Positions 2,193 through 2,560 of a stretch of 8,108 nt of DNA are shown in pieces; positions within the stretch are counted from its first letter, which is position 1, and the number at the start of each line of letters is the position of its first letter. Origin of the DNA: a virus (taxonomy: Duplodnaviria > Heunggongvirae > Uroviricota > Caudoviricetes); the IMG/VR virus record IMGVR_UViG_2690316086_000017. One strand, given 5' to 3'. The notes beneath the pieces were generated by a model, which had not been told where the DNA came from, searched no databases, and saw only the letters and a list, made by a program, of their open reading frames with translations. The translations under genes and the position numbers were made by a program.

Positions 2193-2438
2193 TTATTCTC
2201 CAGCGCTTTTAACGTTGATGGTTGTTACCTGTTCCGCTTCGGCAATCTCCCGTTCTGTCAGCGTGGCAAAGTTTGCCGCCGCTGTGGTCATGAATGCGCT
2301 TATCAGTTCGGGATGCTCCTTCGCGTATCCTTCCCCCGCGTGGCGGTCTATCGTTCTGATTGCCACCTTTAAGGAAAGCTCTGTCATGTCTAACGCTTTA
2401 TATTTTGGCGCTGTCTTATCTCTGGTTTTTCTGTTCAT
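2193..2438 (-). CDS. hypothetical protein, 81 aa
   Basis: ORF from the track with ATG at 2438, immediately beside the iteron array and followed by a strong terminator. No recognisable motif and no convincing RBS. Confidence 0.35.
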   Translation of the reverse strand: MNRKTRDKTAPKYKALDMTELSLKVAIRTIDRHAGEGYAKEHPELISAFMTTAAANFATLTEREIAEAEQVTTINVKSAGE

Positions 2439-2560
2439 TCCCCACTACTCCCCACTTTTGCTCCCCACTTTTTTGGGTATATACAGGTGGGAAAGTGGGT
2501 AATTATGTTTCAATTTTGTTAAATTCCCCACTCCCCCCACTTTTACTCCCCACTTTTTAC
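2438..2560. repeat. iteron array flanking an AT-rich core; candidate replication origin
   Basis: Six direct CCCCAC(T)n copies at 2440, 2450, 2463, 2526, 2535 and 2548 (12-bp consensus CTCCCCACTTTT), an inverted copy AAAGTGGG at 2492-2499, and an AT-rich stretch at 2500-2525. Sits immediately 3' of the rep stop codon. Confidence 0.65.

What the first reader, a model, noticed from the sequence alone, without database searches (positions are those of the whole stretch)
2438..2560. Iteron array with AT-rich core immediately 3' of the rep gene: candidate satellite origin
Six direct CTCCCCACTTTT-type repeats, plus an inverted copy, flank a 26-bp AT-rich segment right after the Rep stop codon. This is the architecture of SaPI/PICI origins, where Rep binds iterons 3' of its own gene. 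It is not a gene, and translating it produced the spurious track ORFs 2164-2502 and 2360-2740.
Basis: partly seen in the sequence, partly recalled or inferred. Interest (0 to 1): 0.6.

Follow-up and report, generated by a model that had tools for sequence, protein, structure and literature searches.

The report
Replication origin of a phage satellite
The repeats are almost certainly the replication origin of a small, already catalogued E. coli phage-satellite island, built the way such origins are known to be built, so the finding is correct but ordinary.

Summary
Six CCCCACT repeats lie at 2440-2554, against 0.66 expected in the whole window. Inverted copies lie at 2485-2500 and a 26-bp, 88% A+T segment at 2500-2525. 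The array starts two bases after the stop codon of a minus-strand helicase gene (2557-3957).

The window is a phage-inducible chromosomal island (PICI) of E. coli, the type catalogued as EcCI11368.1. Origins made of iterons around an AT-rich centre just 3' of rep are already published for this class.

Comparative evidence supports the origin reading. Most Rep homologues from about 27 genera carry an equivalent array. 141 of 161 loci have at least three copies of one GTG-led 6-mer within 280 nt of the stop. In all 141, the fourth iteron base tracks Rep residue 442, at the start of the predicted winged-helix recognition helix:
- His or Lys pairs with G.
- Asn pairs with A.
- Gly or Ser pairs with C.

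Two corrections apply. The window's array is an 83-bp deletion form, found only in strain ML775 among the 60 best-ranked of 163 near-identical E. coli records.

No binding or replication assay exists for this Rep type. Novelty and interest are low.

The parts
2557..3957 (-). rep: 466-aa RepA-family (AAA_25, RecA-fold) helicase, the proposed initiator-helicase of the island
   Evidence: Pfam AAA_25 E=2.6e-43. PHROG 2850 matches full length, and the helicase part matches primase-helicase PHROGs. RefSeq calls it 'helicase RepA family protein'.
2560..2760 (-). Part of rep that encodes the C-terminal winged-helix domain (about aa 400-466). The codon of His442 is 2632-2634.
   Evidence: The AlphaFold model of the domain has pLDDT 87 and topology H-H-H-strand-strand. 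His442 lies immediately before helix 3. Foldseek's best matches are winged-helix DNA-binding domains (PcaR, DtxR/IdeR, MCM and Rpa2 WH) at TM 0.6-0.73, but with weak E-values of 0.03-0.2. Residue 442 co-varies perfectly with iteron base 4.
2526..2556 (-). Rep-proximal iteron triplet. Read on the - strand it is AAAAGTGGGGAG / TAAAAGTGGGGGG / AGTGGGGAA, starting directly at the rep stop codon.
   Evidence: The first forward iteron core lies within 15 nt of the start of the stop codon in most of the 141 loci.
2500..2525 (.).
   Evidence: In relatives the equivalent spacer has a median length of 25 nt, but its GC content ranges from 0 to 0.65.
2485..2500 (+). Two iterons in the opposite orientation (AGGTGGG and AAAGTGGGT on the + strand), facing the proximal triplet across spacer 1.
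   Evidence: At least one inverted iteron is present in 139 of 141 related loci.
2477..2484 (.). Palindromic GTATATAC (TATAYA) box, conserved whatever the iteron type. Candidate melting or helicase-loading point, or a host-factor site.
   Evidence: TATAYA is present in 130 of 141 arrays, against 7% of background 300-nt windows. In 110 of 141 loci it lies 13-17 nt after the start of the inverted iteron.
2461..2474 (-). Iteron that is the fusion point of an 83-bp deletion. In the common form two copies of CTCCCCACTTTT stand here. Between them lie an AT-rich spacer 2 of about 46 nt and two degenerate iterons.
   Evidence: Comparison with O26:H11 11368. Among the 60 best-ranked of 163 records at >=99% identity, 59 span 483-486 bp against 401 in the window, and only ML775 is contiguous. 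Spacer 2 of at least 25 nt is present in 123 of 132 related loci.
2437..2459 (-). Two distal iterons (ATTCCCCACTAC and CTCCCCACTTTT on the + strand). The purine run of the last ones also lies where the ribosome-binding site of ORF81 would be.
2193..2438 (-). ORF81, a conserved small protein of unknown function. It is the next gene after the origin and probably belongs to the same transcription unit as rep.
   Evidence: PHROG 1231 E=5.8e-48. Annotated in RefSeq. The scan found no terminator-like site on the - strand between rep and ORF81.
2157..2174 (-). Terminator-like hairpin followed by a T-run after ORF81. Probable end of the rep-ori-ORF81 transcription unit.

Best explanation
The array is the vegetative replication origin of a phage-inducible chromosomal island of the EcCI11368.1 type.

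Proposed mechanism:
1. After induction by a helper phage, the island makes Rep. Rep is a RepA/DnaB-like helicase that carries its own C-terminal winged-helix DNA-binding domain.
2. That domain reads the 12-nt iterons (AAAAGTGGGGAG on the coding strand). Invariant helix-3 residues (K441, R445, W446, K449) would read the invariant AAGTG part. Residue 442 (His here) would read the fourth base of GTG-G-GG.
3. Rep protomers bound to oppositely oriented iterons would melt the AT-rich spacer and/or the GTATATAC box between them. They would then load themselves as the replicative helicase.
4. Priming would come from the host or the helper phage, because no primase gene was recognised among the ORFs screened.

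The window carries a shortened origin. It lacks the second AT-rich spacer and two degenerate iterons through an iteron-to-iteron deletion.

Shown here: the repeats, their position, their conservation, and the co-variation with Rep.
Inferred: binding, melting, self-loading, and whether the short form still fires.
For: - The repeats are real and far above chance.
- The array starts at the rep stop codon.
- The island is a catalogued PICI. This origin architecture is published for the class and was functionally tested in EcCICFT073 (PMC6092414).
- SaPI Reps bind iterons just 3' of rep through a C-terminal winged-helix domain (PMC9371898).
- 141 of 161 loci with a Rep homologue, from about 27 genera, have at least three copies of one GTG-led 6-mer within 280 nt of the rep stop. 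Most of them share the same order of parts: forward iterons, spacer, inverted iteron, TATAYA box, iteron, AT-rich spacer, forward iterons.
- The iteron core differs between lineages (GTGGGG, GTGAGG, GTGCGC, GTGCGG, GTGGGC), and all copies within one array change together.
- Residue 442 predicts base 4 in 141 of 141 loci: H/K with G in 72, N with A in 38, G/S with C in 31.
- Residue 442 is the only one of about 300 alignment columns that leaves no residual uncertainty. The next best column leaves 0.40 bit.
- In near-isogenic pairs (L095 against L110 and L099) only 2 of the last 62 residues differ. The His-to-Asn change is a single CAC-to-AAC nucleotide change in almost identical flanking DNA.
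- Loci 95-96% identical to the window's Rep over residues 1-451 still carry GTGAGG iterons when residue 442 is Asn. Reps only 63% identical overall carry GTGGGG iterons when it is His.
- The C-terminal domain is confidently predicted as a winged helix, with residue 442 at the N-terminal end of the recognition helix.
- The array stays with rep when the downstream gene differs, as in L110, L116 and L117.
Against: - No experiment on this Rep type was found. The tested Gram-negative PICI replicon (EcCICFT073) shares only the N-terminal 125 residues of Rep and has unrelated iterons.
- Codon 442 lies only 72 nt from the array. Part of the association could therefore reflect co-inheritance rather than recognition. 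Parsimony gives about 9 joint changes on a C-terminal-domain tree, not 141 independent events.
- The 26-bp AT-rich segment is not compositionally conserved in relatives.
- The window lacks the better-conserved spacer 2, so this copy may be impaired.
- The full-length Rep model is of low confidence in the helicase core (pLDDT 63).
- The winged-helix fold matches have weak E-values.
- No primase was recognised among the ORFs screened.
Confidence: 0.85

Rival explanations
1. The array is mainly a transcriptional operator. Rep, or another island protein, binds the repeats to control read-through or expression of ORF81 and the downstream terS-capsid genes, and replication starts elsewhere.
For: The array sits between two co-directional genes with no terminator-like site between them on the - strand, and the last iterons overlap the ribosome-binding region and start of ORF81. 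Iteron arrays in plasmids commonly double as autoregulatory operators (general knowledge).
Against: No sigma-70-like promoter was found in 2150-2750. The array persists next to rep where ORF81 is replaced by other genes or by non-coding DNA (L110, L116, L117). The layout of opposed iterons around AT-rich DNA matches the published PICI and SaPI origins. A regulatory role could also coexist with origin function.
Confidence: 0.06
2. The array is an origin, but the iterons are read by a different protein, and the helicase is only recruited. Candidates are the DUF4222 protein encoded just upstream of rep, another small island protein, or a helper-phage or host initiator.
For: In RSF1010-type replicons the RepA helicase does not bind the iterons; a separate RepC does (general knowledge). 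DUF4222 and the small ORFs upstream of rep are conserved between this island and EcCICFT073.
Against: The same DUF4222 and small-ORF set accompanies a completely different iteron type in EcCICFT073. Iteron base 4 is predicted without exception by Rep residue 442, in a predicted DNA-binding helix. There is no DnaA box with at most 1 mismatch in 2438-2560. The iterons change together with an island-encoded residue, which a host initiator would not explain.
Confidence: 0.05
3. The repeats are the packaging (pac or cos-B-like) site recognised by the island's small terminase.
For: The island encodes a TerS homologue about 0.9 kb downstream. Terminase small subunits often bind repeated sequences (general knowledge).
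Against: A separate and better-placed repeat array (GTAACTTT, 7 copies in both orientations) lies inside and just upstream of terS at 1346-1619. The CCCCACT array follows rep rather than terS across loci and co-varies with Rep.
Confidence: 0.03
4. The repeats are neutral slippage products or a protein-coding segment with no function of their own.
For: The copy number varies through deletions between repeats: the 83-bp deletion in the window and the collapse to three copies in L098.
Against: Enrichment is about tenfold over chance. The layout is conserved across about 27 genera despite sequence turnover. Indels are not multiples of three. The crossing ORFs have no significant family match and are not annotated.
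Confidence: 0.01

Closest known systems
Replication origins of Gram-negative PICIs (EcCICFT073 pri-rep-ori; Fillol-Salom et al. 2018, PMC6092414)
   Same: Same class of island; the window's island type is listed there as EcCI11368.1. The position is the same, immediately 3' of rep. The plan is the same: two sets of iterons around an AT-rich region. The upstream genes are homologous (DUF4222 and small ORFs), and the N-terminal 125 residues of Rep are 65% identical.
   Different: EcCICFT073's Rep is a 584-aa primase-family protein. Beyond the N-terminal domain it is unrelated to the window's RepA-type helicase and its winged helix. Its iterons (CTGTCTACC / GGTAGATA) are unrelated. Only the EcCICFT073 replicon has been tested experimentally.
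SaPI origins and Rep initiator-helicases of Staphylococcus aureus (PMC9371898 and work cited there)
   Same: A self-contained initiator-helicase with a C-terminal winged-helix domain that reads short iterons. There are 6-12 iterons directly after the rep ORF, an AT-rich centre, and iterons facing each other across it.
   Different: SaPI Reps are AAA+ helicases of superfamilies 3 and 6, according to that paper. This Rep has a RecA-fold AAA_25/RepA core. The iterons here are 12-nt units with a 6-7-nt core, not penta- or hexanucleotides. The array also contains a conserved TATAYA box and, in the full-length form, two spacers.
Iteron-containing plasmid origins (pPS10, R6K, RK2, F) with Rep_3/WH1-WH2 initiators
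   Same: Directly repeated initiator-binding sites next to AT-rich DNA. Recognition by winged-helix domains. Iteron specificity matches the cognate Rep.
   Different: Plasmid iterons are 17-22 bp spaced about two helical turns apart, usually with DnaA boxes. The initiator is not a helicase (general knowledge). Here the spacing is 9-13 bp, there is no DnaA box, and the binding domain is fused to the helicase.
RSF1010 (IncQ) RepA helicase system
   Same: Pfam places both helicase cores in the same family (AAA_25, 'helicase RepA family').
   Different: In RSF1010 a separate protein (RepC) binds the iterons and a dedicated primase (RepB') primes (general knowledge). Here a winged helix is fused to the helicase, and no primase was recognised among the ORFs screened.

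Membership tests
Phage-inducible chromosomal island (Gram-negative PICI) | Small island (about 8-15 kb) at a specific attachment site, with an integrase at one end | tested here: met
   Tyrosine integrase at 6867-8108. The island is about 8.6 kb, between yejO and tRNA-Pro/yejM. The same location is listed as EcCI11368.1, 8.5 kb, att yejM-luxR. One att-core copy with one mismatch lies next to int.
Phage-inducible chromosomal island (Gram-negative PICI) | AlpA-type regulator, unidirectional transcription, and a replication module followed by an origin | tested here: met
   A 68-aa HTH protein matches excisionase/regulator PHROGs. All annotated genes lie on one strand. Rep is followed by the array.
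Phage-inducible chromosomal island (Gram-negative PICI) | Helper-phage-dependent induction, packaging and transfer | not testable with these tools
   Needs induction and transduction experiments. Only terS and capsid homologues were seen.
PICI/SaPI-type replication origin | Located immediately 3' of the rep ORF | tested here: met
   The stop codon is at 2557-2559 and the first iteron ends at 2554. The position is the same in the related loci.
PICI/SaPI-type replication origin | [quoted passage not shown] | tested here: met
   Triplets at 2440-2469 and 2526-2554, inverted copies at 2485-2500, and 88% A+T at 2500-2525.
PICI/SaPI-type replication origin | Iteron sequence matched to the cognate Rep's DNA-binding domain | tested here: met
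   Perfect association of Rep residue 442 with iteron base 4 in 141 loci, including near-isogenic pairs. This is co-variation only, not binding.
PICI/SaPI-type replication origin | Rep binds and melts the origin; rep plus ori drive autonomous replication | not testable with these tools
   Needs EMSA or footprinting and a plasmid-maintenance assay. These have been done only for EcCICFT073 and SaPIs.
Classical iteron plasmid origin (Rep_3 / WH1-WH2 initiators) | 17-22-bp iterons in helical phase, DnaA boxes, and a non-helicase Rep_3-family initiator | tested here: not met
   The units are 12 nt, spaced 9-13 nt apart. There is no DnaA box with at most 1 mismatch in the array. The adjacent protein is an AAA_25 helicase with no Rep_3 hit.

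The most novel reading that the evidence does not exclude
Across a widespread family of satellite replicons in Enterobacterales, origin specificity may be set by a near one-residue, one-base code at the start of the winged-helix recognition helix of a self-loading RepA-type helicase. His or Lys would specify G, Asn would specify A, and Gly or Ser would specify C. Single point mutations together with concerted iteron change would then create new, mutually non-interfering replicons. The window's 83-bp deletion form and the three-iteron collapse in L098 would be natural origin mutants that show which parts are dispensable.
Probability: 0.45. Interest if true: 0.45.

Novelty: new member of a known kind. 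Interest (0 to 1): 0.3.

Why it matters
On its own, this adds an origin annotation to a non-coding stretch of a known E. coli satellite island and removes two false ORFs.

The comparative result is more useful. It gives a testable rule linking one Rep residue to one iteron base. That rule could be used to:
- predict which co-resident islands share or avoid each other's replication machinery;
- type these islands;
- design orthogonal Rep-ori pairs.

It also shows that these origins lose parts by recombination between iterons, which bears on judging whether a given island is still mobile.

Tried and rejected
- Sequence search of Rep against solved structures gave no hit.
- The Foldseek search with the full-length Rep model was uninformative, because the helicase core is poorly modelled. 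The only hints were RecA-fold and T7 gp4-type matches at E above 0.003.
- The sigma-70 promoter scan of 2150-2750 found none, so I dropped the idea that the conserved TATAYA box is a -10 element. It also lacks the invariant final T.
- A DnaA-box search found nothing in the array.
- The Rfam scan found no RNA family in the array. Its two hits lie elsewhere.
- Protein-family scans of the three ORFs crossing the array gave nothing significant.
- I first expected the experimentally tested EcCICFT073 origin to be homologous. It is not: only the N-terminal domain of Rep is shared.
- I could not establish whether Figure 2a of PMC6092414 already depicts this particular origin, because figures are not held.
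- Literature searches found no paper on the origin of the RepA-helicase type of PICI.

Full report
**What is in the sequence**

All genes of the window lie on the minus strand. A 466-aa ORF (2557-3957) ends with its stop codon at 2557-2559. An 81-aa ORF starts at 2438. The 118 nt between them hold the repeats.

CCCCACT occurs on the plus strand at 2440, 2450, 2463, 2526, 2535 and 2548, with only one more copy in the window (3380). The expectation for the whole window is 0.66, and none of 200 shuffles reached seven. The two triplets form a 45-nt direct repeat 85 nt apart.

Between the triplets, in plus-strand order, lie:
- a palindromic GTATATAC box (2477-2484);
- two inverted copies, AGGTGGG and AAAGTGGGT (2485-2500);
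- a 26-nt segment with 88% A+T (2500-2525).

The quoted 12-mer fits only two copies exactly and a third at 11 of 12. A second inverted copy and the GTATATAC box were not listed.

The plus-strand ORFs 2164-2502 and 2360-2740 exist but are not annotated in RefSeq. PHROGs gives no match, and Pfam gives only one hit well below its cut-off.

**What the element is**

The window is 100% identical to a chromosomal island of E. coli O103 strain ML775. It is identical, apart from one indel, to islands in O26, O111 and O103 strains. The island is about 8.6 kb and lies between yejO and tRNA-Pro/yejM.

It encodes:
- a tyrosine integrase;
- a small AlpA-like HTH regulator;
- Icd/Ash-like genes;
- a DUF4222 protein;
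- a RepA-family helicase (Pfam AAA_25, E=2.6e-43);
- ORF81;
- a small terminase subunit;
- a capsid homologue.

The same chromosomal interval of O26:H11 11368 is listed as the phage-inducible chromosomal island EcCI11368.1 in Table S1 of Fillol-Salom et al. 2018 (PMC6092414). [quoted passage not shown] It shows for EcCICFT073 that both rep and ori are needed to maintain a conditional plasmid. For SaPIs, the Rep initiator-helicases read such iterons with a C-terminal winged-helix domain (PMC9371898).

**Comparative test**

I collected 160 loci that encode Rep homologues. Eighty came from one genome per species (about 27 genera of Enterobacterales plus Gilliamella) and eighty from viral contigs.

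In 141 of the 161 loci analysed (these plus the window and related fetched loci), a GTG-containing 6-mer occurs at least three times within 280 nt of the rep stop. The order of parts is the same almost everywhere:
1. Two or three forward iterons, starting at the stop codon.
2. A spacer of about 25 nt.
3. One or two inverted iterons (present in 139 of 141 loci).
4. A TATAYA box. It is present in 130 of 141 arrays, against 7% of background 300-nt windows. In 110 loci it lies 13-17 nt after the start of the inverted iteron.
5. One forward iterons.
6. A second, AT-rich spacer of about 52 nt (present in 123 of 132 loci).
7. A final cluster of forward iterons that abuts the next gene.

The array stays with rep even where the downstream gene differs (L110, L116, L117). 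This argues against a role tied to ORF81 or terS.

**Co-variation with Rep**

The iteron core differs between lineages: GTGGGG, GTGAGG, GTGCGC, GTGCGG and GTGGGC. All copies within one array change together. That points to a specificity factor encoded by the island itself, not by the host.

Rep is mosaic, with several N-terminal and core types, and the iteron type follows neither:
- Reps 95-96% identical to the window's over residues 1-451 carry GTGAGG iterons.
- Reps only 63% identical overall carry GTGGGG iterons.

The iteron type follows one residue, position 442 in the motif K-H-F-R-R-W-L:

| Residue 442 | Iteron base 4 | Loci |
|---|---|---|
| His or Lys | G | 72 |
| Asn | A | 38 |
| Gly or Ser | C | 31 |

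There are no exceptions among the 141 loci. Of about 300 alignment columns from the Walker A motif to the C-terminus, only this one leaves no uncertainty about base 4. The next best column leaves 0.40 bit.

In near-isogenic pairs (L095 against L110 or L099), 2 of the last 62 residues differ. The change is a single CAC-to-AAC substitution in almost identical flanking DNA, while the iterons read GTGGGG against GTGAGG. A second correlation also appears: H-L-K instead of H-F-R at 442-444 goes with GTGGGC in 10 of 10 loci.

AlphaFold places residues 405-466 in a confident helix-helix-helix-strand-strand domain (pLDDT 87 when modelled alone). Residue 442 sits just before the third helix. The best structural matches are winged-helix DNA-binding domains (PcaR, DtxR/IdeR, MCM and Rpa2 WH) at TM 0.6-0.73, though their E-values are weak, as expected for 70 residues.

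Invariant residues K441, R445, W446 and K449 would pair with the invariant AAGTG part of the iteron.

One caveat applies. Codon 442 lies only 72 nt from the array, so co-inheritance inflates the count. Parsimony gives about 9 joint changes on a tree of the C-terminal domain and 21 on a tree of the helicase core.

**The window's copy is a deletion form**

In O26:H11 11368, and in 59 of the 60 best-ranked E. coli records, the rep-ORF81 interval is 83 bp longer. These 60 come from 163 records at 99% identity or more. Only ML775 matches the window contiguously.

The extra DNA is the second AT-rich spacer plus two degenerate iterons. It is bounded by two identical CTCCCCACTTTT copies, so the window's form arose by recombination or slippage between iterons, or by an assembly collapse. 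Locus L098 shows a larger collapse, to three iterons. L099 and L102 have hybrid arrays.

Spacer 2 and the TATAYA box are conserved. Whether the short form still fires is unknown.

**Alternatives**

- Promoter or operator. The scan found no sigma-70-like promoter and no terminator-like site on the minus strand between rep and ORF81. A terminator-like hairpin follows ORF81. A purely regulatory role is therefore unsupported, although the array could also act as an operator.
- Host initiator. No DnaA box with at most one mismatch lies in the array.
- Packaging site. A different repeat array (GTAACTTT, seven copies) lies in and just upstream of terS and is the better candidate.
- A separate iteron-binding protein such as DUF4222. 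This is unlikely, because the same upstream genes accompany unrelated iterons in EcCICFT073.

**Comparison with known systems**

The array works like a SaPI or PICI origin and meets every sequence-level criterion of that kind. It is not homologous to the one tested Gram-negative example. EcCICFT073's Pri-Rep shares only the N-terminal 125 residues (65% identity) and has different iterons.

It also differs from SaPI Reps in helicase class: a RecA-fold AAA_25 core here, against AAA+ superfamilies 3 and 6 in SaPIs. It differs from classical iteron plasmids in unit size, in spacing, in lacking DnaA boxes, and in having the binding domain fused to the helicase.

**Verdict**

The finding is a further member of a well-described kind, in an island that is already catalogued, so interest is low (0.3).

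The most novel reading still open is the one-residue, one-base specificity rule. The comparative data support it strongly, but it has not been tested by experiment.

Noticed in passing
window 1346-1416 and 1600-1619: A second repeat array. GTAACTTT occurs seven times (six exact copies and one with a mismatch) in both orientations, inside and just upstream of the small-terminase gene (minus strand, 1087-1575/1713). It is a candidate packaging (pac) or TerS-binding site.
   Followed up: partly
window 5166-5253 and 5275-5351 (minus strand): Rfam matches above gathering score to C4 antisense RNA (77.6 bits) and isrK (66 bits). Both lie inside the uninterrupted 409-aa ORF 4920-6149, which RefSeq splits into Icd-like and Ash-family pseudogenes. 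The long ORF is therefore probably not a single real gene. The region resembles a P1/P7-type c4-icd-ant immunity module.
   Followed up: no
window 3583-3957 (Rep residues 1-125); L163 5242-5616: The confidently modelled N-terminal domain of Rep (pLDDT 83-92) is 65% identical to the N-terminus of the otherwise unrelated EcCICFT073 Pri-Rep. This looks like a swappable module of unknown role shared by two different replication proteins. It does not track iteron type.
   Followed up: partly
L098 (about 30 nt after the rep stop); L099 and L102 (about 200 nt after the rep stop): Natural origin variants. In L098 the array has collapsed to three iterons. L099 and L102 have hybrid arrays, with GTGAGG iterons next to rep (matching Asn442) and GTGGGG iterons at the far end. 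This implies recombination inside the origin.
   Followed up: partly
window 2157-2174 (minus strand): A terminator-like hairpin with a T-run lies directly after ORF81. This suggests that rep, the origin and ORF81 form one transcription unit, separate from the terS-capsid genes.
   Followed up: no
Loci L004-L027 (Xenorhabdus) and L044-L066 (Pectobacterium, Serratia, Morganella and others): Many homologues of the helicase core and winged helix sit in proteins of about 680-730 aa, with a long extra N-terminal part instead of the 125-aa domain. This may be a fused primase. The same origin layout follows them.
   Followed up: no
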